A DNA stretch of 64,000 bases. Source: Ptychomitrium polyphyllum (taxonomy: Eukaryota). The stretch is from positions 5,952,001-6,016,000 of the forward strand of contig OZ316775.1 of NCBI GenBank assembly GCA_973851085.1, given 5' to 3'. Position 1 is the stretch's first letter. Each line of letters starts with the position of its first letter. This document shows positions 1 to 61,752 of the stretch, piece by piece. The translations under genes were made by a program, and so were the position numbers. The notes below the pieces were generated by a model. The model ran no database searches and was not told the DNA's origin. It saw only the letters and a program-made list of their open reading frames with translations.

Positions 1-15
1 TGTGAATTTGCGGCC

Positions 16-3000
16 ATGGCATCGGAGGGGAGCTCTCTCGCATTTCGGCTGAATCTGCTGGTTGTGGTAAGCTCGATCCACCCGCCTTCTTCATTTTACC
101 ATACTTGGTGGGGACATGACCTTGTTCAGGCCAGTTCAAGGTTATGGTTAAGCTCGCTTTTGAAGATGTGTGATCTGGTTTCTGTTTTCTGGGAAATTGG
201 GTCAAGAATCGTATGTTTGAAGAAACATCATTTAATGATGATGTCTAGGTGAGGTTCTCTTAGAAAGAGGATATGACCATATTCGGGCCAGTGCAAGGTT
301 TAAGGTTAGCCTCGGTTTGAGATCACTGTTGCCTGGTTTTTATGGTTTGAGAGATTGTGTTTAGGATTGCATGCCATGAGAGAGATCATTCAATGATGAT
401 ATATATGTGGTTTTCTCTTGGTGGAACTGATAATTTAGCGGATCGCATGTGTGGGGTTAGTGATGGTAATCGAAGCAATTGGGGAAATTGATGAATAAGG
501 GAGCTGTTGGTGGTTTTGGGACTGGGTGTGATTTTGCAATCGATGTTTGGGAACTGGGTTGTGTTGTGTTATAGGATGTTGAATTTGGAATGAAGGTGAG
601 CAGGAGATCAAGTAAGAGGGTTGTGGCGTTCGTGTTGCATGCGCAGGTGTTGTCAGTTGCGGTGTGGGGTTCCTTGTACTTCAACAAGTATTTACGTGAG
701 CTTGAATTGACTGCCAGGTGTGTGCTCAGAGTAGAGGTTGAACGTATTCTGTTAGCGCCTTCTGCATTGTGAATCTTGTGTCCTTAGAAATAGTTCCGCA
801 AAGTCATTTTTTGATCGAGGGTTTTGTTAAGAAATTAGTAGTAGAGAAATTGAAGGTAACTTGATAACACCCGAACTTTATTTTCTGGTCTAACCTTAAA
901 GAGAAGGAACCGGTGAGCTTTGGCATATGCATGATCTCCACCAAGAATGTTGATTTCATCAATTCAGAGGTTAGCATTGGGTTTTTGTCTATATTATTAA
1001 AACAGGGGAATAGAATTAAGCTTCTCAAGTTGCGAAGACGTGCAAGGTGCAACTAAGGAAAATTTCTTCTGGAAACCTAACTTCTTTAAACCCTAGCAAC
1101 AGTTGGAGCGGGCATAACTTTGGCCTTCTATGTTCTAAAGTTGGTATTGTCTTGCTGTTGCTCTGGAATGGCTTCTTCCAGCAATGCAGGGACATGCCCA
1201 CTTTTGGATTATGGTACGTATGCACATATTTCTCGACCATCTGAGAAGTACATCTCTTTGATACTGCCAGCATATAATGAGGAGGCTCGACTCCGCATTA
1301 CTCTTGATGAAATGTTGAGGTACCTCCTCTACTACTAATCCTGTTTATATTGAGGATTGTTGTTTCGAACAGAAACATCTATATTTGACAGAATCATGTC
1401 ATGCATTGTATGATAGGACCCAGCCAGATACATTAGTATGGTCACGATTTTATCTGGCTATGTCCGTGACGATAATCCTTCCCGTTTTACGTTCTGCAGT
1501 TATCTTCAAAAGCGAGCAGAGAGCGACAAGTTATTCACTTATGAGGTGTCTCCCTTGCGATATGAGTACCTTTTTAGTGGTTTTACCTATTATGTATCTC
1601 AGCTACTGCGCTATTGACTTCATTACCAGTCCTCTCATAGATTATGTAGGTGGAATACACATTGATAAAGCAGCAGGTTTTAATAGCGTTTTGGATTCGC
1701 CTTGTTGGTGGGGCCAGGTAATTATTGTGGACGATGGCAGCACTGACAAGACTCTGGAAATTGCAAAGGAGTATGTAAAAACTTATGGCATCGATACAAT
1801 ACGGGTTCTTAAACAAGTCGTGAACCACGGCAAAGGAGCAGCTGTCAGAAAGGTATTCATGTCCTACCGTGACGATTTCTATTTTTGCTATCAAATTAAC
1901 AGTTGGATACTTCTTTGGATGTTTGTGATACCGTCGCTTTGTGAAGTAGTGTATGCTATGAATAGCTAAGCATTTTAGAAATTTTGTCAAGTCTTGAAGA
2001 TCGTCAGTGCTGAGAGTTGGAGCAAAATGCAGGGAATGCTATGTTCTCGTGGGGAGCTACTCTTGATGCTCGACTCTGATGGTGCCACCAGATTCGCAGA
2101 CTTGAGAAAGTTGGAACTACAAGTAAGTCTTTGAATCTTCTTCATTCTGCTGAACGCATGTGTTTGTAGAGAATCAGAGAGCGTGGAACGTCTTAATAGT
2201 CAGTTACAATGTTACAGTACCGAGATGTTTGTGATGTTTGTTCAGATGTTGCTAAGTATGGCAGATCAGAATAGATTTGCGGAGGCAGGCTCTGTCTATG
2301 ATGGGGACAGTATCCCCGTCGCTGTGTGGGGATCTCGAGCACACCTAGAAAAGCAAGCATTAGCCACAGTAAGTGGGTTTCCCTTTTAGACCCCTTCTAT
2401 TACGAAATCATAAACAGTTACAGTTGTCGCTCATGTGCTCTTTTTCAATATTCAGTAAGCTGGCTTCCATATAAGCGCAGTCAGTATGGAATTTCTAACA
2501 CGAACCCCAAGTGCAGGGCTTTTGAAGAGCAGTCTAGACTGTTAGTTCTGTCTTCGTATGAAGGTATCTGCAAGTGATGGTCTGGGAATATATCTTGAGG
2601 TTTTTCCTATATTTGTTATGCAGCGCAAGTGGTATCGTAATATTCTCATGAAGGGCTTTCATCTTTGTGTTCGCTTTGTTGCTGGTGGAGGCATCCGTGA
2701 TACTCAGGTTCGTCGTCTCTACAGTACTCTTTTATTCTGCATATCATGTTGTTGTAGCTCAGAGACATCTTTTTGGTAAGTATTTTAGGTATGACTGTAA
2801 ACATTACAAGTGAAATCACAAAAATCACAGCCGTGTACAACATTGGTGCTAGTCTCTTGGTGCTCAAATTTGCAAAATCTAAATTAGCGTTCATGAAAAT
2901 GTTGGAACTGTCAATACATGTGGTATCTGGTGAAGTTTTTTAAGGAAAACATAGGAATGTCGAGGATGGATTCTGTATGTTACAATTTACACTCAGGAAC

Positions 3001-28242: not shown

Positions 28243-29387
28243 TGTCGCGCACTTCTCCTTGAGGAGTGCCCGCAACACTAAAGGCACAAAGAGGACCCCG
28301 GAGTGACGTCTGGGACTTGTGGCGCCGATAGTGAGGGAAACCGAGTGGGCCTAGCGTGGGAAGGACCCCTAGGGGGAGAAACATCCTTGCCCATGTAGAC
28401 CGAGGGCCACGAGGGATAGATTGTGGGCATTGGAGGAATCACGAAGAGCTAATTCTAGAATGCTAAAAATTGTCCAAATCGGACAAGGGAACTAAAAGTT
28501 ATGGCATTCCAAAGTTGGGGTTGCCAAGGGGCTGTTCTGGAGTGTGGCAGCCCTACACAGTGATTGTAGTGGAGTGGGACAGTTCAGGGAGGGACTCCCC
28601 AGGAGTCCCAAACCTTGGGAGAGGCGTATCTCCTACAATACTAACTCAAATATGACGTTTGAGGAGTTTATCGGCATCTACGCAAAGAGTAGATGACGAT
28701 AGAGTGGTCGCTCAATACATTCGGGCACCGGATGAGGAAGATATGGCTCCCTGAAGGTCCGCTAGGAGTCTCGGAGGCTTCCAGCGGCTAAGTTCCAAGG
28801 GAGATCGGGTGGTCTTCCAAAACTCTAGGTGTGTCGGGGTTCAGCCAGCTACAGAGGACCAGGGGGCCTGCCAAATCCCACAGAGAGTACTATAAGGGAG
28901 GGCTGGTCCCCCTCCCCACTCCCCTAGTGTCCCGGTAGAGACCAAGGGTGAGTCCTGGTTGGTGGAGCTAGCGTTGGGGCTTCACCATGGGGACTCCCAC
29001 ACCATTGTGAGCCGGTAGATGGCCGGTTTCACGGAGGGAACTAGCACGTTCAAAAGAGTACGCTTGTTACCACTAAGTTGGGGTGGTGTCTTCACGCCGG
29101 CACCATGATGGCCTAGGGTGATTTTAGGATCGCATGGGGATTATGAGTGGTGGTGAGGAGACACCACTAAGTGCGGTTAAGCCGTGTGGATTGGGAGTAA
29201 CACCAAGTGAGGCCTTGGACATAAATGGAAGTCCGCACTTAACCATTGGCTATTAATAAATTGGGTGTCCTAAGAGAAATGGTAGAAAGACTTGGATAGT
29301 GAGAATCGAGGTTAACCATGTGCATGTGGGAGTGTACAGAATTGACGCGCGTGACGCTTGCTAAGGTGCATTACAAGGGTTGCGACA
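28243..29387. mobile_element. Solo LTR (1145 bp) with intact target-site duplication
   Basis: Starts TGTCGC and ends GCGACA (6-bp terminal inverted repeat, TG...CA). Flanked by TTACT at both 28238-28242 and 29388-29392. Sharp GC-rich block in AT-rich DNA with no gag/pol ORF. Confidence 0.9.
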
Positions 29388-29429
29388 TTACTAGTATTAA
29401 AAAGTATTATTAATAAATTTATCAATTAG

Positions 29430-30786: not shown

Positions 30787-31751
30787 CTAAAGCGATTGGT
30801 GAAGCGATTCACCATCGGTAGACAAAACCGTTACAGACTCTCGAGTGACGGCGGTTTCCGAGAGGAGGGCAGAGTTCGGCTTCTTCCTGGATTTCTTCAC
30901 TACCGTTGTTTCTTCGGTCTTCAACATTGGCACCGGCCACACGTACGGGAGATCCGGCGGCTCCGTCCACCCGAATTGCGTGTAGTGCTCAGGTTCCTTT
31001 CGCAGCAAATTGGAGCGGTGGGAGGCGTGAACTGAGTCATCTCCTGCGACCGAGAATCAGAATTTGCGAAGTCAGGCCTATGATCTGAATGCCCTGAATT
31101 CAGCAAAGCGAAAGAACTACAAGAAATCCTCAGTAAATTTCATTCCAAGAGACATTCCCATTTCGAAATTCAGCAAGAGAAATGGATACCTTGACACTAA
31201 ACCCTAAACCCTGATGAACCAAAACCACGTCGACACACAAGGGACATTCCTCGACCTTGATGGGAGATTCTGAGGTTTCATTGCAACCTATGAAGGGAGG
31301 TGAAGAGAAGAAAGTGCTCACCAAGCCATGGCGGCATGACGACGGGCAGCAATTGAGGCTCCAGAGGCTGCAGAATTACGTTCTTGAACCCCCGCCTTCC
31401 CCATTCCCCCAAGCAGGCATTGTAGTACACAAGGAGCGCGTCCGGAAAGCCACGCCACATTCGCACCGCAGGCGAATTCGCCCATGCCGTCCCCTTCACC
31501 GGCACGGGGCTTGCCTGCACAATGCGCAGGATTTGCCACGCCTCCACCCTCTGCTTCCCCAGGCGCCGGTTGTCCAGGCATTCCACGGTGCGGTCGAACT
31601 CCGGGTAGGGCAAAAACGTATTGAGGCACCGGACTTGGAGCCTCCTGCTCCCCGATGATAACCCCGTATGCTTTCCTACGCCGATGAAGCGGTGCGATTT
31701 CGAAGGACTGACTCGCGTGAAGAAATGTTGCGAACTTAGTCGAGACGTCAT
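30787..31751 (-). CDS. Pyrimidine-dimer DNA glycosylase / T4 endonuclease V-like protein (MSMEG_6728-type) with N-terminal organellar transit peptide; 2 exons, 228 aa
   Basis: Exon 1 31751-31322 and exon 2 31043-30787 join in frame across a GTGAG...GCAG intron (PPWL-G-DDSVHASHRSNLLRKEPEHY). Motifs LNTFLPYPEF, LDNRRLGKQRVE, PAVRMWRG, EWGRRGF, PPWLG, SHRSNLLRK, DLPYVWP match the pattern I recall for the bacterial family. Confidence 0.85.
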
Positions 31752-33831
31752 GGTTGTCGCTATTCGGGAACCAATCTAGGGCTTCGAGCAGGGGAATCTA
31801 TTCATTGCGGTCTCATGTGCTCTGAACGTCCTACTGATCAAAAATCCTTGAGATAATCTCACGAAGCTCTAGTGAAGCTAGTTCTAATCCTGCAATTCCA
31901 CCTAAGCCCATTGTTTCCGAAATCCTCCACAAAAGCCAGGAAACGCCTTCACTTAACTCTGTTCTGCTTGAATTGAACAAAAGGTGGTTGAACCCTTAAG
32001 TCTGGAATCAAAGCAGGTTCAAATGCAAGCGATCTCCAAAGGACTGAAAATTTCTATTCTAGCACTAGACGAATTATCAACCGCCCCACCGCTGCCTGCA
32101 CATTTGCACCCACTGGCCGGCTGGCTCGCAATCACAGGATATAATCTAGATATAGGTACTCTGCCACTGCGTTGCGGATTTGCCCACATTACGCTGGCAC
32201 CACGTGGACGATAGCGATGGACTTTACATGTTCCAAGCGTCCATGCCCAGCGCTCCCACATTCCAAATCGCTGCGCCGCTTGATGAATCAAGCTTGAATT
32301 CCAAATCGTCAAACAAAGCCGGATGAACACTGCAGATATGTGTGTACTTCCACCCTGTGTCAACTTTATCGAGTGTGCACGCATTGTTTGTAAAGTAAGC
32401 TTCGCAATCGAGAAGGATTCAGCGTTATCTTCGCAATCACCTTACACTTGATCCAGTTCTCCCAGTTAGATCTTATGCCCGCTTGCAAGTACTAGGTGTT
32501 GATATGCAACACCAATGTTATCTCTTCGCATTTCTGCCTCCAGCATGGGCCTTAGCTCATTCGTGAGCCGGAATTTCTCCCCCTTCAGCTCTGCCAACAC
32601 TCCACGACTATGTCTCAGAAATTGAGCGAGAAGCCCAGCAGGATTCTGAAACGGGCAACTACGAATTGCTAGCTGCGATCTACACAAAACGGATATTGGA
32701 AACCGAACTACAACTGCTTTATTAACTGCTCTTAAAGCTTCCTAAGTACTGAAATCTCTCTTATCAACTTGCTGCTGCACAAGAAGTTCAACTTAATTAA
32801 GAAACAGTTAAATCAGTCCGGAAATCACTCGCGCTATGACCAAAACGAAGACCCTCAATGCTGCACAGCAGAGCAGTGTGGTGCAATGACACATAGCCTA
32901 CAGAAACACTGCATTCCACAGTTCATCATACCCATATGAAACAAGCACGCTAGAGCTATAGAACGATCAGGCACAGGTACAAATGGTGGAGCGAGATTAA
33001 CATGCCTACAGTTTCGTCCTAAACTACCTGTCCACATCCTCGGCTTAGATGTCACGCATCTAACAACATCTAGAATCAGTGAGACAGAGCCAGTTGCTTA
33101 CGTACGTCTGACTACTGTTACGAAGAAACATCCGCTTGTCAATGTATCACAAAGTAAAACGTTGATGCAAATGAGAGTCCTCCTAACTGGCCGGTGAAAT
33201 AAATAAATTTGAGGTAGAAGGTAAAGATTCGGAACCATCTGAACTCAGAGAATCGGTATACCATCGATGAGTGTACCATTGATAAGAAAGAAGCCCGATG
33301 TAGCTGTACACGCCGGTTGACCTACATGTTATAGTAGAATAGTAGTTGACACAGACAGTACGAGAGTGCATTCTAGGACTTCGGTTTGAGAGTGCAACTT
33401 GGTCAAATTCTGTTGTGAGATGTCGGTTTGTGAAAGTCTACTGCCTACTCCTGAATTGAGGGTAGAGAAGTGGATTCTAATCAACTTTCACTTGCCTACT
33501 GTTTGAGGCCCGTTTGAGGGTAGTACTGTAGAATGCAGACCAGCGGAGGGAGTCAGAATCACAGGTCCAGCACGGTGCTGCACGACGTGTGGAATTAAGG
33601 GCCAGCAGCCAACGGGGATGTTCCAAGCAAATGTAGAACCCTTCGACTTCTATCTCTCCATTTACTCTTGTTGTGGATACAAATTCACTTTGATGAAATG
33701 TGAGCAATTATAATTTATTGTACCATCCAATTCTACGTTTGGCAATTTTGATAATTGATTAATGAATCACGTAGTCTCTCAAGAAGTCAGGGGTTACGGT
33801 AATCAATTTTGCAAGCTTGAAGCTAGAGTTC

Positions 33832-38439: not shown

Positions 38440-39887
38440 CTACCCAGGCAGCCTTCTCTTCTCAATATATGAACCCGCCAGCCCAGATGTTCCAAGCACA
38501 CTAATCTGCAATCAAATAAAAAGTAGTGGTATTAGCATCAAACGAAAGTTTTTGCAACCACCTGTACTCAAAGTTAACAGTAAATTTTCTATCCCATAAA
38601 GTCTCTCAAAGTGCTACTGTGATTTGAACTCACCTCCGACCATTTTGGATCCATGCCAGTGAGACGCTGCTTGATTTGGAGGAGGACCCCCCCTAGCTCA
38701 AGTTCTACCTTCTTCCTCAAGTAGACTTCATCTCCACCAAACGCACTTAGGTACGCCATATACTTTCTGTGCGCCGCTTCTACTGCCGCGTATGTGGAGT
38801 CTGGTATTGTTCCGACATTCTGTTGGCAAACCGTGCAATCAGAGCTCAAAAACTATTAAGCAGCCCGTAGAAATTGAGGTGATGCATGAAATGCTTACTT
38901 AGGAGAAAGCATACTTGACAATGTGTGCAAAGAGAGCGACTGTAGCTAAATTAAGAATGAATCTACGACGAATTCCACCTCTCCAGTGTCCCCGCACAAA
39001 TCATTGATCTCCAAAAGCATATCCAAAAGTAGCCCCCCGAAGCTCTCTACTGCTTGTGCCGCCGCCCACACATCAATCAACGTTTCTTTCCCTGCTGAAT
39101 CGTCACTGCCACCTGAAATCGTACTCTCCACAGCCGACCTGACTTGTGGTTCAATCTTCAACCATCCATGTCCCAATAGCCCACTCAATGCCTTGGCAAT
39201 CTTCGCATCGTGGACGGGAGGCAAATTGGAAACAAAACTACCGGTCATACACCTAACTTGAGGGCTCAAACCTGTACGGCTCAACATTCCTCGAGTAGTT
39301 GATTGATGTGCTGCAATAGCAAACATAGCTCCTATCAAATTTGTGAATGACGCGACAACTAAGAACCCCCCGACCCCCCTCCCCCCCACAAATCTGCATG
39401 ACATCGGAGTGAACTAACTGCAGCAAACATCAAGAAGGGAGCTAATATGAAGCTTGCACATCAAGAACATTCCAACATGGGCATTGTTCAATTCAACCGA
39501 TAGGCAATTCAAAACTCTATAGTAGTGAAACATCAACTCGTGACCTAATTAACTCTCTGCTTCCACAATCACAATGTCAAATTCGAACTCACCAAAAGCA
39601 TCTAGACAATCCTAATGACGGATCCCAAGCATGACAATACGAACGCCATTCTCCATGACCAGACGATCAGACCCTGCTTTTGCAACTGCAAGAAAATGCA
39701 AAGGGTTAAATGCAGGTATAAGGCAGCACACAATGAGATGAGGATGTGGATAACAACAAAGTGGTGCAGGAGGGTTACCAGGTGAGGCCCGGTTCGCGAT
39801 GGTGTGCAGAGGAGCCGCTGCAGAGGATCCTCGCAGCCAGAGCCGGTGAGCAAGAAAGGTGGTGGCAATCCTGGCCATGGCAGCCAT
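38440..39887 (-). CDS. SDH5: Succinate dehydrogenase subunit 5, mitochondrial (plant-specific)
   Basis: Exons 39887-39779 (mito presequence MAAMARIATTFLAHRLWLR), 39310-38979 (DDSAGKETL..AAQAVESFGGLL), 38819-38634 (EVYLRKKVELELG), 38505-38440 (VLGTSGLAGSYIE). These match the plant SDH5 pattern. Confidence 0.88.
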
Positions 39888-55593: not shown

Positions 55594-57671
55594 CCATAAC
55601 TTATTAGAAAGCTTATAATTTAAAGATATGGTATCAAATGCAAATCATTGATGTTGCTTTTGATAAGTGAGTCTGTACATTGAAGGATGTTAAATATAAA
55701 TTGCTTTGCTGCAAAGATTTATTATATTATATTTAGGTCTCCGTAAAATATGGATAATACACCACCTGAATGTGCATATTATATAATCAAACCAAAGTCA
55801 ATTCATAGCTTTTCTAAAAATACTAAACAATTTAGGAATATATCATACAAACTTAACGTACGATTCAAAGATATAACATATACTTCTCACTTCTAAAGTT
55901 AAAGATAGACTAATGATGAAAGTACACCTTGAAGTTTAAAACTTTCAGTACGGAATTCTATGATTTTCAATAGAACATTATTGAAGAATAATATTTAAGA
56001 TTAAAAACCCTTTCAATAACTCAATCAAAAGTCTATATTCTGCATTAAAGGAAACTATTGGTCTTTCATCTTCAAAGCTCTGATTCCTAGAATTGAGGCT
56101 AAACTAGCAAATCATAATGATCTATAATTAAACTACGATATTCAGAAAAAACCTTCACTTCTTACTATGAAGGCCTTCCGGACCGTTTCCAACTTATCCA
56201 CCAACGAAACTTAATTCTTGAAAGGCAGCAGTCAAACTGGCCTCGACTACTTCTGACTAGCAAACCTCACAACAAAGTGTAAAATTGGTCAACAACAAAG
56301 TGGAATACCTTATCCACTGCTGAGCAAAAGCACATCCAGCAGATACAGCAAATCGTCCAATAAAGTCTAGTAATTTCCAAACGACAAGTACATCATAACA
56401 CAACACTAATATAACATAAGATACACATACTACACACAGAATAAAATAAGCTCTCATCCAATCTCGAAATTCTTGACCAACCACGTACCCAATCCAACTC
56501 AAAACACGAGAAAAAAAATCTGCGAAAACGACTGCCATTGAGTGAAGCGCCAAAAGAACGTGACTAGGCAATTAACTACAACCTCCCAAACAGGTTTTGA
56601 TTCTAAACACGACTGCATCTCCGGCAAGCACGACAACTGGGCGAACGCTCCATCCAACATCCACGACCGACATGCTGCAGCCCTCACGAGACGGCGCTCC
56701 CGTTTCAAGCCACTGCACCGCTGCCACGCCTTCCCAGACGGACTGCCTTGCACACGCACGCACGCACCCACATTCAAAGACCCACTCCCTGCCAGATTCT
56801 ACTCCGGCGCACGGCCACCGATACATTCACCATGCGGCAACACCATCGACACACGGCTCCCCATGGCAGGTGAAAAAAAAATTTAATTGGCCCCCCCGGG
56901 GAGCAGCCTCAACTACTACAACACTACCAGAGCCCTATTACGGCCCTCTTTATCACGTGACCCTGCTCCTGCATTCTAACTATGTCCGCATTAGCCGTCC
57001 GACAATCAATCCCTTCATCGGCATTGTACACCGCCCCCTCTCCCACCTTCTCGCCGGCCCCCCGCCCCCCACTTCCTCCACAGGATCCCGGCCCGAATGC
57101 TACACAGGGCTCAACCACCGTTTCGCGTCCTCGCCGCAGCTCCAATTTCCACGCTGCCGCCGGCTTCTCCACGCACCGGGTGGACGTCCAGGCGCTTCCG
57201 CATCCCTCGACATCACCCCGAGAGCTTCCCTGCAGCTTCCCTCGCTCCCGTCCGCCACGCGCCCTGCCCGCCATCGGAGCGGACAGCCCTACCTTCACGT
57301 TCCCTATACCTTTCTTGTGCTTTCCTGAATGAAGAATATCTCCAGCGCTTATCCTCCTCGCCGCCTTTCGCGACTATGGACTCTCGTCCCTATGGACTGT
57401 TGTACAGGCCTCTGCGGCGTCCCTCCCCTCGCCCCCGTCGGCCGGGCTCCGCCGTCGCCCAACGAACCGTCTACGGACGCGACGGCTCGCCCGGTGGACG
57501 CCCTCCGCTCACCGCCACCAGGCTGGAGGCACCCCGGAGGACGATCGTCGCCCCTCCGCTCCGCCTCTTCGGATTGCGCCGACTCCCACCCGGATCTCAC
57601 AGCCGCAGACTTTTACACTCCTTATCATAGCATACTTATACAGGCAGACCAGCTACGGCGCTCCTCGTCTC

Positions 57672-60600
57672 CTAGGCTGTCCACGACGCAGACCTCGTCA
57701 GGGACGGCTTCATCTTCCGGTCCTCCTCCAACCCTATCATTCCCAGGTGCGACGGATCCTCCAGCATCATCTTCGCCACCAGATAGCCCGCAATGGACCA
57801 CGTCTGGAACTTCCGAGCCTGCTTCCCCACGTACCGCCCCAGCTTGCCGTCGTAGTACTCCGGCCACCCGTCCTTCGCTAGCCTCGTCTCCACCTGCTCG
57901 ATGGCCCGCCTCGCAATTTGCGGCCTCCCGGCCTTGATGCACGCAGCCGTCAGCATCCACAGGATAACTGCACACACAACCCACCGACCAAACCACATGC
58001 TCAGCGCACCATCATGCGGCCCGTCGTTCCGCCCGCTGCACACGGCACTCCGCGTCAACGCATTCGGCACCGCCGCGCACGACACTAGCCGCCCCGGAAC
58101 TGTCAACGGCTCCCACGGCCCGCACCCAAACCCGACCCGGCGTCTCCACTCCGGACCCTAGTTCCGTCTTGCAACATTAGCGCCGGCCGCACCGGTGCCG
58201 CGAACATCCTCTCCTCGGACCCTCACTCTCCTCTCAACTAGCGACCGAAGGTGGACTCTGAGTCGCGACTTCCGACTCGATTGCTCTCGTCCACGCCCAC
58301 GCAACGACCCGGGACCGCCTCAACCTCCCCCGACACCGGCGCCTGCTACCCAAGAACGACGCAACCCTCGCTCCGTTCACCGACGGCAGGGCGGGTGACG
58401 CCCGGGCCCCCGACACGACCTCTGTGCCTCGGACACCCGAGCGCGCACCCGCCCAACAGCGAACCCTAATCCAAGCACAAACGGAAGCGACTGGCGCTCT
58501 ACCTGGCCACGACCCGGCATTGTGGTAGCTCCACCTCGTGTTCTTCGGGTCGCATCCCGTCACGATGCGCCACTCGTGCCCCTCCATCGCCGGGTACGAC
58601 ACCTTCAGAGGCATGTCGCCCACCAGCTCCGGCCACCGCGCTTCCAGCAGGTCCATGATGGCCGACGCCTGATCCGACGTCGCCAGCGACGACAGGATGG
58701 CCATGAAGTTGCCGATGGCGAACCACCGGAAGTCCATCCGAGCAGGGCTCACGTTCCCGATGAAGAAGCCGCCCTTCAGCGGCAGGAAGTCGAATATCCA
58801 GTCCGGGATGGAGTCCGGTATCACGTTGAACTTGTTCACGGCCGTGTGCGAGTACTCCTCCGTCTTGAACCGGTAGATGTTGTTCAGCTGCTGGTGGTCC
58901 AGCCAGAAGTACTCCCGCATGTGGAAGCTCAGCGCGTGCAGCCGCTTGTCGATCCTCTCCAGAAACTCCTTGCCGTCCCCTTCCGCCTTGATCAGGCTCT
59001 TGGCAGACCGCAGAGCCATGAAAAACAGGCTCTGGATCTCGATCGGATAACCGTAGATGCCCTGCCACCACGACACACGCGGGTCAGCTCCCCGCCATCT
59101 CCCGCGCACGTTCTCCGGAGGGCCACCACGGCGTCCTCCGGCCAACGCACGCCTGCCAAACCCCGTGCCTCACCACCACGCCGGACGGCCCCGACTCCCG
59201 CACCACGCACTGCACACGCAGACCTAATCCTCACACCGGCTCACGAACCTCACTGCTATCGGTCGTCTACCGGCGCACCGCGCGGCCCTCGCCCCACCCT
59301 CCCCTAAGAGTTCCGGATGCACGTACCATCCGCCGATCCACCATGCAGCACCCGTCCGCGCACAGCAGCGTCGGAAACGTATCGAAACCGTCCGCCAGGC
59401 ACAGCGTCAAAATCAGCCTCATCCCCCTCTGGCAGTCCGCCATGTCCGCCAGGGTGTGGTCCCCGGTCGACTTCGTGTACGCCCGAAGGAGTATGATCCA
59501 CCAGAACCCCGAATCCACCGGGGCCACCCTCCCGATCGCACTCTCGCCGAAGTCCGCGATCATCGTGTCCGTCTTCCGCACCGGGTCGTGCAGGACCTGC
59601 GAGTCCACACGCCGCTCACCCCGTCAGCACGCCACCGACACCCCCCCCGCTACACAAAACACACCGGCCTCGCCCGAGCGATTCCCACGGCACGGGGTCC
59701 CGCCCCGTCCAGCCTCGGACGACTTCCACATCTACGTGCTTCCGGACACACCACCACACGCCATTCACGAAACAAGCCCACGCTCACCTTGAAGCTGGCC
59801 GGCATCACGCCTTCCCCCAACGTGAAGCAATCGATGCGCTTCTCGATGCTCTGCAGCCGCAGCGTCTTCAACAGGAAGTTCTTCACTATCTCCGGCTCCC
59901 CGTTCATCAGAAACGCCAGCGCGCTCGGGACGAAGTCCCGCACGAACACCTGCGCCCAAGTCATACGTCAGACTCCCACGCGGCATACATACAGTGCCTG
60001 CCATCCAGGCGCACCACTCCGCTCTCACCCCCACGCCGCACGACCTGCACTACTCCGGCGTGCCCGCGACGATGGCCGGATGCGGTCCCCAACCAGCGAC
60101 CGCCACACCTGCTGCCGTTCGCGACGCGGCCCACATTGCACGCGCGCGACCCCCGAGCCCCACGCCCTCCACGAAGACCTAACAACACGACGCTCTACCC
60201 TACCCTGCCACCACCGCCACGCCACCCGACACTGAGCGTCCGCTCGGGACGCGGAGCGGGCTGCAATCCGCAGGACCCGTCCGATTCGCTCTCGTCCGTT
60301 CCGCGCATCCCGCCCTACCGCTCCACGAATCAACCGCTTGCCGACGACCCCATTCCCGGCTACTCTACGCGTGCTGCCCCCTTGCTCGCAGCGCTCGCCG
60401 ACCGACACACGCCTCCCCGTACTTTCGCCCAATTCACCGCGCCCCCGACGCATGGACGGACGACACACACTGCACATGCTCACGGATAGCGTACCTGATT
60501 GTAATTCAGCGAGTCCTCCGTAGGATCCAGCGCCGCGATGGTTCCCACCGGCCTCGACCGGAAGTACACCATCGACCTCCTCAGCGCTTCCCATGCGTCC

Positions 60601-60941
60601 GCAATCATTGGATGAGGCTCAAACGCATGGTGCTCCCGAGGAGTACCGGCCGACGACCGGATGCTCGGAGACAGCAGCGCCTCCAGGCACTCCGAACTCT
60701 TCACGGTCTCTAACTGCCGGGGAGGCCGCGGCGACGACAGGCCCGAAGAGATGATGTCATTCAGCGACCTCTCGTCCAGAGAGTGCTGGGTCTCAATCTG
60801 GCGCGGCCTGAGGTCCATCAGCTTCCCGAAATCCACACTGCCGTTGTCCCCAGACGCGTGCGACTCGTTGGCCTTCCTAAGTGCCTCCGAGGTAGTCTCC
60901 AGGGTCAGGGGTCTTGGAAAGCTATACATGTCGAAAGGCAT
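57672..60941 (-). CDS. Cytosolic alkaline/neutral invertase (GH100), 5 coding exons
   Basis: Exons 60941-60495 ([14 protein letters not shown]), 59949-59788 ([14 protein letters not shown]), 59596-59327 ([30 protein letters not shown]), 59061-58503 ([10 protein letters not shown]...[10 protein letters not shown]), 57967-57672 ([24 protein letters not shown]). No transit peptide is evident, and the RSASW tail is typical of the cytosolic clade. Confidence 0.97.
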
Positions 60942-61752
60942 TAGGTTTCCACCGGCCCTCTGTCACGACAAATCGGACGCGTATCTCCCAATTCTCGGCC
61001 ACGTACGGCGGGCGTACGTACACACAGTAATGCGGCAGATCGAGCAACGCACTTAGGACAGATTACCGTTCAGTGCTTCTTAGTGTGAACTGCCTCAGGG
61101 TTCTGCGAAGGGTGCGGCTTACCACGGCCGAGCGAATGTCTCCTCCGGGCCCTAATCCACACTCGGATCGCTCTTCTTGAGGCCGCTACCCCGACCCAGC
61201 TCCTTCACCACTCCTGCCTCGCATTTCCCTCCAACTCCCGACTCATCAAGCCCTCGCAATGCATGCAACCTGCGCGCACCTCAACGCCTGCTCAGAGCGC
61301 CTCTCCTGCTGCTTATCGCGTCAGGCATCAGCCGCGGGCGCCAATTCTCTGCTTCCCGCCGTGATGAGACTGGAAGTGTCAAACTCTGCTTCCGGGCTGC
61401 ACATTCGAGGAGGACGGGATGCCGCGCTCGGAAACCTCAGCCCCCGCCGCGACCCCGATCCGGAGGGAGAACGCGCACCCGCGCGGAGCTGCCCTAGCCA
61501 ACGGCCAAACACCCGGGCGCCCAGGCCACAGACTGGACAAATTGGGCGAGCGGGAAGAAATGCGAGGCGGGGAAGGCGAGCGGGGCTACGGCAATGAGAT
61601 CTCGCGCCCACGGAAGGTCGATCGGCCCCGGCCGAAGACGGAGCCCGGCGCCTCCCTCAGATCTGCTCAAGACCTCGGACCGCCGCGCGCACGAGCCCAC
61701 CGCCCTCTCCCCAGGCCAGCAATTGCCGCCGCAACCACCACACTCGCCACCT

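What the first reader, a model, noticed from the sequence alone, without database searches (positions are those of the whole stretch)
31620..31751. Transit peptide whose predicted cleavage (VRC|L) would recreate the bacterial, potentially catalytic, N-terminus
Seen: residues 1-42 are Ser/Arg/Lys-rich, contain no Asp/Glu, and end in RRLQVRC directly before LNTFLPY, the position of the initiator M(Q)TFLPY in bacterial homologues. Known: V-R-C/A is a typical plastid stromal-processing context, and T4 endonuclease V uses the free N-terminal alpha-amino group as its Schiff-base nucleophile. Inference: the precursor may be inactive in the cytosol and be switched on by import and processing, giving an organelle-restricted UV-repair enzyme for plastid or mitochondrial nucleoids.
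Basis: inference. Interest (0 to 1): 0.8.

Follow-up and report, generated by a model that had tools for sequence, protein, structure and literature searches.

The report
Import-activated DNA repair enzyme in moss
A moss gene of likely bacterial origin encodes a relative of the phage T4 UV-repair enzyme behind a leader peptide whose end point is fixed from algae to ferns, so that cutting the leader off inside mitochondria or chloroplasts would likely free the catalytic first amino acid and switch the enzyme on only there.

Summary
Window 31751-30787 (minus strand, two exons, 228 aa) encodes a Pyr_excise / MSMEG_6728-family protein behind a 42-residue leader with no Asp/Glu.

In 22 of 22 streptophyte sequences (mosses, liverworts, fern, Spirogloea) the leader varies from 31 to 86 aa but ends in [IVT]-R-[CAGS] directly before L-[NQ]-TFLP. 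That Leu is the start codon in prokaryotic relatives (80 of 81 unbiased hits). In predicted structures this position pairs with Thr2 of T4 endonuclease V, whose alpha-amine is the Schiff-base nucleophile. Prokaryotic relatives keep this register and, in 107 of 120 long fusions, keep the domain first.

Pyrimidine-dimer specificity is untested. A His found in 417 of 419 non-plant homologues is Ser/Ala in land plants. Trimming or acetylation after import could spoil the terminus.

Cleavage, localisation and activity are inferred, not shown. My literature searches found no description of the plant gene.

The parts
31626..31751 (-). Predicted organellar leader peptide, residues 1-42
   Evidence: 0 D/E, 8 K/R; low pLDDT in the orthologue's model; absent from prokaryotic homologues
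31626..31637 (-). Conserved junction Q39-V40-R41-C42 (P4-P1 of the predicted cut)
   Evidence: R(-2) 22 of 22, I/V(-3) 21 of 22, small residue (-1) 22 of 22; 43 of 43 junctions incl. near-identical cluster members
31623..31625 (-). Leu43 (codon CTC): predicted mature N-terminus, equivalent of bacterial Met1 and T4 Thr2
31542..31544 (-). Glu70, likely catalytic acid (T4 Glu23 equivalent, by manual register)
   Evidence: invariant in alignments A3 and A4; same L..E spacing of 11 as T4 L12-E23
31473..31475 (-). Ser93, replacing the His of W-x-N-H-P-A-V
   Evidence: His in 417 of 419 scoreable non-plant homologues; Ser/Ala in all land-plant copies checked
31322..31751 (-). Coding exon 1 (leader plus Pyr_excise domain core)
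   Evidence: Pfam PF03013 63.9 bits, E 1.8e-17, residues 44-124
31044..31321 (-). Phase-1 GT..AG intron, 278 nt (inferred from sequence and spliced relatives; no RNA run available)
   Evidence: spliced relatives P0127, P0128, P0145, P0006
30787..31043 (-). Coding exon 2: rest of the domain (HASHRSNLLRK..YVWP) and C-terminal tail
30880..30897 (-). Basic patch KKSRKK in the C-terminal tail (possible DNA binding or nuclear signal; kept in a close moss, absent in Physcomitrium)

Best explanation
This is a nuclear moss gene for a T4-endonuclease-V-fold protein of the MSMEG_6728 subfamily, likely a DNA glycosylase/AP lyase, whose leader is predicted to be cut at C42|L43 after import into mitochondria and/or plastids, which would free the Leu43 alpha-amine that likely serves as the Schiff-base nucleophile. 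Shown: family, fold, junction conservation, register with T4 Thr2, no internal start at L43. Inferred: import, the exact cut, escape from further trimming, activity with Glu70, and inactivity of the uncut precursor (amine tied up in a peptide bond). My odds for compartment: mitochondria only 35%, both 35%, plastid only 22%, neither 8%. Substrate: UV dimers about 40%, otherwise abasic or oxidised lesions.
For: Junction [IVT]-R-[CAGS]|L-[NQ]-TFLP in 22 of 22 streptophyte sequences while positions -12 to -6 vary and leader length runs 31-86 aa; named members: Physcomitrium, Marchantia, Riccia, Adiantum, Spirogloea. Best structural match T4 endonuclease V: Z 9.5, rmsd 4.2, 111 aligned, model 59 (= window L43) to chain 2, next Z 5.0; bacterial model Z 9.7, rmsd 4.0, 107 aligned, residue 1 to chain 2. 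T4's nucleophile is the N-terminal Thr alpha-amine (PMC3285167 passages). Of 284 non-plant proteins with the motif near the start, 254 begin at the L43-equivalent with Q/N/I second, 27 begin M-V (Met removal would restore the register; MetAP rule recalled), 3 otherwise. Start codon at that position in 80 of 81 metagenome hits found with patterns that exclude the N-terminus and 76 of 81 genome hits. Domain is first in 107 of 120 proteins over 401 aa. Both processing consensuses fit the same bond: plastid (V/I)X(A/C/M/S), mitochondrial RX (PMC4986872). Spirogloea has paralogues with two different leaders, both ending [IV]RG|LQTFLP.
Against: No localisation, N-terminal or activity data exist here. 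Leu is an unusual final terminus: ICP55 removes F/Y/I/L after MPP (consensus RX(F/Y/I/L)|(S/A)(S/T)), and plastid termini favour A/V/T/S. In Physcomitrella only about 47% of plastid N-termini match the predicted site exactly and 42% are acetylated (PMC11450134). The near-invariant His is Ser/Ala in land plants. By manual register T4 R3, R22, R26 fall on N44, V69, Q73 (their role in T4 is recalled). The fold match is mostly helical with 12-16% identity and rmsd 4; Foldseek gave no E<=0.001 in PDB and hhalign found no significant match to T4. Pfam places T4 Met1, not Thr2, at model position 1. 13 of 120 long proteins have upstream residues; P0151 has the domain at 363. No subfamily member is characterised in the papers I found.
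Confidence: 0.65

Rival explanations
1. The leader is cut at or near the junction but Leu43 is then trimmed (ICP55 or a plastid aminopeptidase) or blocked, and the protein acts from N44 or as a non-catalytic DNA-binding factor; the junction is conserved only for efficient processing.
For: R-X-L-N-T resembles the -3R motif; ICP55 removes Leu; ragged, acetylated plastid termini in moss; His-to-Ser/Ala change in land plants.
Against: ICP55 consensus wants S/A after the removed residue, here N/Q; no one-residue-shorter form among 284 non-plant starts; Glu70 and RLGKQRVE are retained; mere processing efficiency does not obviously demand R(-2) and Leu in 22 of 22 (no control protein was tested).
Confidence: 0.2
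2. QIRC-like residues are part of the folded protein or a propeptide; the leader is cut further upstream or not at all, and the enzyme uses another nucleophile or has none.
For: Four residues upstream are unusually conserved; pLDDT of block 51-60 is intermediate, 65; a few non-plant proteins carry upstream sequence.
Against: Prokaryotic homologues fold without these residues (pLDDT 96.6); upstream extensions in non-plant proteins share no motif and end at M/V/L/I, as expected from miscalled starts; the conserved residues are those of processing-site consensuses.
Confidence: 0.1
3. The protein is not organellar: it works in the nucleus via the basic C-terminal patch and is processed by another protease.
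For: KKSRKK at residues 193-198, similar patch in close moss relatives.
Against: Patch absent in Physcomitrium and Marchantia; leaders are acid-poor and Arg-rich in all lineages.
Confidence: 0.05

Closest known systems
T4 endonuclease V / pyrimidine dimer glycosylase (DenV, PDB 1ENJ/2END; Pfam PF03013) and Chlorella virus cv-PDG
   Same: Same Pfam family; best fold match with Leu43 on Thr2; conserved Glu at the same helix spacing.
   Different: 12-16% identity; six extra residues between terminus and Glu (27 vs 21); T4's Arg3/22/26 positions not kept by manual register; terminus made by leader cleavage rather than Met removal; activity untested.
MSMEG_6728 family (NCBIfam NF038085), uncharacterised prokaryotic and phage proteins
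   Same: 61% identity to the closest prokaryotic hit over 139 aa; full-length plant relatives score 109-142 bits against a cutoff of 100.
   Different: Leader peptide, intron, Met1 changed to Leu, His of NHP changed to Ser/Ala, C-terminal tail.
Organellar enzymes whose catalytic N-terminus is freed by transit-peptide removal (Fd-GOGAT Cys1, plastid amidophosphoribosyltransferase; recalled, no call)
   Same: Processing after import creates the catalytic first residue.
   Different: Those are Ntn amidotransferases using a Cys side chain; this would be a DNA repair enzyme using the alpha-amine of Leu.
Plant MAG glycosylase acquired from bacteria (PMC5570899, passages)
   Same: Bacteria-to-streptophyte acquisition of a DNA glycosylase.
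   Different: Unrelated family; no dependence on a cleaved N-terminus reported in the passages seen.

Membership tests
T4 PDG / Pyr_excise (PF03013) | Pfam score above gathering cutoff | tested here: met
   63.9 bits vs 23
T4 PDG / Pyr_excise (PF03013) | T4 endonuclease V fold | tested here: met
   Top VIA-align hit for both models, Z 9.5 and 9.7 vs next 5.0 and 4.5, rmsd 4.2 and 4.0; helical fold, so moderate strength; Foldseek E above 1
T4 PDG / Pyr_excise (PF03013) | First residue in the Thr2 position | tested here: met
   First aligned pairs L59:T2 (Physcomitrium model) and M1:T2 (bacterial model); Pfam's own start differs by one
T4 PDG / Pyr_excise (PF03013) | Free alpha-amine at that residue in vivo | not testable with these tools
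   Needs N-terminomics; moss tables not held
T4 PDG / Pyr_excise (PF03013) | Catalytic Glu23 equivalent | tested here: met
   E70 invariant; equivalence by manual ungapped register L12-E23 / L59-E70, not by a printed structural alignment
T4 PDG / Pyr_excise (PF03013) | Arg3/Arg22/Arg26 basic cluster (role recalled) | tested here: inconclusive
   Manual register gives N44/V69/Q73; other conserved basics R63, K66, R68 lie nearby
T4 PDG / Pyr_excise (PF03013) | Glycosylase/AP lyase activity on cyclobutane dimers | not testable with these tools
   Needs assay
MSMEG_6728 family (NF038085) | Score above curated cutoff 100 | tested here: met
   P0128 (74% identical, full length) 137.8; P0006 133.1; window exon 1 alone 81.7 because partial
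   Ser93 in the window; His in 417 of 419 scoreable non-plant proteins, 21 of 440 unscored
Plastid transit peptide | Acid-poor, Ser-rich leader with (V/I)X(A/C/M/S) at P3-P1 | tested here: met
Plastid transit peptide | A/S/V at P1' and length near 56 aa | tested here: not met
   P1' is Leu; 42 aa, within the 15-152 range but below the mean
Mitochondrial presequence | Arg at -2 of the MPP cut, F/Y/L after it, length near 43 aa | tested here: met
   R41, L43, 42 aa; R(-2) and Leu in 22 of 22
Mitochondrial presequence | Amphipathic N-terminal helix | tested here: inconclusive
   Best 11-residue hydrophobic moment 0.44 in the window, 0.34-0.74 across orthologues, no reference set
Plastid or mitochondrial targeting | Import and processing in vivo | not testable with these tools
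   No targeting predictor on hand; no experimental data found

The most novel reading that the evidence does not exclude
Streptophyte algae took a prokaryotic T4-endonuclease-V-type gene and rebuilt its start codon as an exact organellar cleavage site, kept from Zygnematophyceae to ferns and not found in seed plants. Import itself arms a light-independent pyrimidine-dimer excision enzyme in chloroplasts and mitochondria, giving early land plants a dark-repair route for organelle UV damage, while the precursor cannot nick nuclear DNA.
Probability: 0.3. Interest if true: 0.85.

Novelty: new variant of a known kind. Interest (0 to 1): 0.66.

Why it matters
How plant organelles remove UV dimers is open: photolyase did not reach chloroplasts in the non-grass plants tested, and Arabidopsis chloroplast dimers were not removed in 24 h (PMC11060685 passages; no bryophyte in the passages seen). 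A T4-type glycosylase in organelles of bryophytes, ferns and their algal sisters would be a new route and a candidate adaptation to life on land. It is directly testable by knockout in Physcomitrium (PHYPA_016582) and Marchantia (MPTK1_2g12340). The protein would also be a natural reporter of single-residue processing accuracy by MPP, SPP and ICP55, and a first handle on the uncharacterised MSMEG_6728 family.

Tried and rejected
No whole genome is held, so copy number rests on flat contig depth only. No RNA holder listed; splicing is inferred from relatives.

Sequence searches of PDB found no relative and hhalign to T4 DenV was not significant; only VIA-align linked the folds clearly. The pdb_via look was not obtained.

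Alternative initiation at L43 is rejected: codon CTC, no Met before M98.

Moss N-terminome tables are not among the held supplements (1 small file, 0 hits). The Marchantia orthologue was not found in a chloroplast proteome's supplements (PMC13419835; the old gene id was interpolated from neighbours), but the 'glycosylase' rows shown were a transglycosylase only, so this says nothing on location.

Gene neighbours of prokaryotic relatives show no conserved operon: of 130 flanking ORFs, RecX, DinB, a RadA-like ATPase and photolyase occur once each, TspO three times. The metagenome scan returned no plant locus among the 80 kept, so Leu codon usage in orthologues is unchecked. The tree did not identify a donor. 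No control for junction conservation in other organellar proteins was run. Earlier-findings look-ups returned nothing. Three papers asked for by id were not held. No seed-plant hit appeared among the listed rows, but most rows are unnamed and lists are cut.

Full report
1. Observation. The finding covers residues 1-44 of a minus-strand ORF starting at 31751. Residues 1-42 have no Asp/Glu, eight Lys/Arg and 29% Ser/Thr, and end RRLQVRC before LNTFLPY. The window is intron-rich plant nuclear DNA (ZIP transporter, lectin receptor kinase, amino-acid transporter, neutral invertase), and the best named protein hit is from the moss Physcomitrium. Depth over the gene is flat while a high-copy repeat starts at about 29389. 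The gene has a 278-nt GT..AG intron (31321-31044) and a second exon to 30787, giving 228 aa. No RNA run was listed, but full-length relatives are colinear over the junction (P0128, 74% over 227 aa).

2. Family. Residues 44-124 hit Pfam Pyr_excise (63.9 bits, cutoff 23). Full-length plant relatives pass the NCBIfam MSMEG_6728 cutoff (109-142 bits vs 100). The closest prokaryotic hit is 61% identical over 139 aa and starts exactly at query residue 43. AlphaFold2 models of the Physcomitrium precursor (pLDDT 81.8, leader low) and of a prokaryotic homologue (96.6) both have T4 endonuclease V as best match among 48,161 chains: Z 9.5, rmsd 4.2, 111 aligned, range 59..179 on 2..126; Z 9.7, rmsd 4.0, 107 aligned, 1..120 on 2..138. 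Residue 59 is the window's L43, so both first pairs fall on Thr2. In T4 the N-terminal Thr alpha-amine forms the Schiff base with Glu23 as partner (PMC3285167, passages; it numbers them Thr1/Glu22). Limits: the fold is helical, identity 12-16%, Foldseek E-values exceed 1, hhalign is not significant, and Pfam starts T4 at Met1.

3. The family guards its first residue. Among 284 non-plant proteins with the TFLP-like motif near the start, 254 begin at the L43-equivalent with Q, N or I second, 27 begin M-V-x-T-F, and 3 differ. By the Met-aminopeptidase rule (recalled) Met stays before Q/N/I and is removed before Val, so both classes give the same register. In DNA, that codon is ATG/GTG/TTG in 80 of 81 hits from 80 metagenome loci found with patterns that exclude the N-terminus and in 76 of 81 hits from 80 genome loci, where one pattern did include it. 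Of 120 listed proteins over 401 aa, 107 carry the domain first, 8 within 60 residues and 5 only internally; every displaced copy begins with M, V or L. Their C-terminal partners include a RecQ-zinc-bearing region and Fpg/Nei, which fits DNA repair. One further internal case is P0151.

4. The plant junction. Homologues with a leader were found in mosses, Marchantia, Riccia, the fern Adiantum and the alga Spirogloea; Mesotaenium has a model that lacks the N-terminal part. In 22 chosen sequences including the window, leader length is 31-86 aa and positions -12 to -6 vary, yet -2 is Arg in 22, -1 is C/A/G/S in 22, -3 is I/V in 21, and +1 is Leu in 22. All 43 junctions in the 42 of 47 plant-type proteins that contain one fit the pattern; many are near-identical. 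The window's Leu codon is CTC and there is no Met before M98, so only proteolysis can free L43. A quick tree of 111 rows puts the 13 streptophyte rows on one branch (SH-aLRT 88, not starred) among prokaryotic rows, donor unresolved; no oxygenic cyanobacterium is among the 80 best genome loci. A single acquisition before the Zygnematophyceae-land plant split is likely but not proven. TTG starts occur in relatives, one simple way for Met to have become Leu (inference).

5. Which organelle. Arabidopsis consensuses are (V/I)X(A/C/M/S)|(A/S/V) for plastids and RX|X or RX(F/Y/L)|(A/S) for mitochondria, the latter being an R-2 cut followed by ICP55 removal of one residue; mean lengths are 56 and 43.3 aa (PMC4986872, passages and part 1 of 24 of one table). 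V-R-C|L meets the plastid P3-P1 pattern and the primary MPP pattern at the same bond. The invariant Arg, the Leu and the short leaders lean mitochondrial. Spirogloea has paralogues with an MAALAATASAG leader and an MFHASRFLMAR leader, which read as plastid-like and mitochondrial-like (my reading). Need points to plastids: photolyase reaches mitochondria but not chloroplasts in Arabidopsis (PMC11060685, passages). I therefore leave the compartment open, with dual targeting as likely as mitochondria alone.

6. Against. Leu is a destabilising terminus: ICP55 removes F/Y/I/L, though its consensus wants S/A next, not N/Q. Moss plastid termini match the predicted site in about 47% of cases and 42% are acetylated (PMC11450134, passages and first part of one section); acetylation would block the amine. 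The same paper notes mature RbcS starts with Met after cleavage, so bulky first residues do occur. The His of W-x-N-H-P is present in 417 of 419 scoreable non-plant proteins but is Ser/Ala in every land-plant copy checked, in Mesotaenium and in the MAALAA-type Spirogloea copies; only the MFHASR-type keeps it. By manual register T4 R3, R22, R26 fall on N44, V69, Q73. Many prokaryotic carriers are anaerobes, neighbours show no repair operon, and MSMEG_6728 appears in papers only as a SigF- and zinc-responsive gene of unknown function (PMC4694148, PMC7174638, passages). Dimer specificity is thus unproven; cv-PDG is reported to have a broader range than T4 (PMC7019647, passages).

7. Mechanism. 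Shown: family, fold, register, junction conservation, no internal start. Inferred: cytosolic precursor with the L43 amine in a peptide bond, hence inactive; import; cut after C42 by MPP and/or SPP; free Leu43 amine attacks C1' of a damaged nucleotide with Glu70, then beta-elimination; completion by organellar base excision repair. Whether precursor inactivity is a selected safety device or a by-product cannot be told.

8. Novelty. Searches for the family with plant, moss or HGT terms, for PF03013, MSMEG_6728 and the Physcomitrium/Marchantia gene ids returned no description of the plant gene (listings only, open-access library). Subscription surveys of horizontal transfer in land plants, and supplements I could not see, may list it. 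Activation by transit-peptide removal is known for N-terminal-Cys amidotransferases (recalled). I rate this a new variant of a known kind, interest 0.66.

Noticed in passing
window 31473-31475 (-): Near-invariant His of the family is Ser here and Ser/Ala in all land-plant copies checked; only one Spirogloea paralogue type keeps His. May mark a change of substrate.
   Followed up: partly
P0148, P0292, P0149, P0369 (Spirogloea): Tandem paralogues with two different leader types, both ending [IV]RG|LQTFLP; P0369 looks like a merged model of such a pair.
   Followed up: partly
window 31776-31805, 31816, 31911 (-): Three short upstream ORFs; the nearest (9 codons) is in frame and stops 24 nt before the main ATG. 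Transcript start unknown.
   Followed up: no
window 28500-29389: High-copy repeat (depth over 1000 times the flank) whose edge lies about 1.4 kb past the gene's stop; looks like an LTR end.
   Followed up: no
P0371, P0372, P0375 and about 100 similar long proteins: Prokaryotic fusions of the domain, at the N-terminus, to Fpg/Nei or to a ~400-aa region with a RecQ zinc-binding motif.
   Followed up: partly
L045:1369-4388: A Chloroflexota homologue lies between a DNA photolyase gene and a B12-binding HTH regulator; TspO is adjacent in L018, L030, L069. Weak hint of a light-stress role.
   Followed up: no
window 57600-61000 (-): Neutral invertase gene in a GC-rich block (about 65% GC against about 40% elsewhere).
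   Followed up: no
window 38949-39413 (-): Stop-to-stop frame matching plant SDH5 (PF14290).
   Followed up: no
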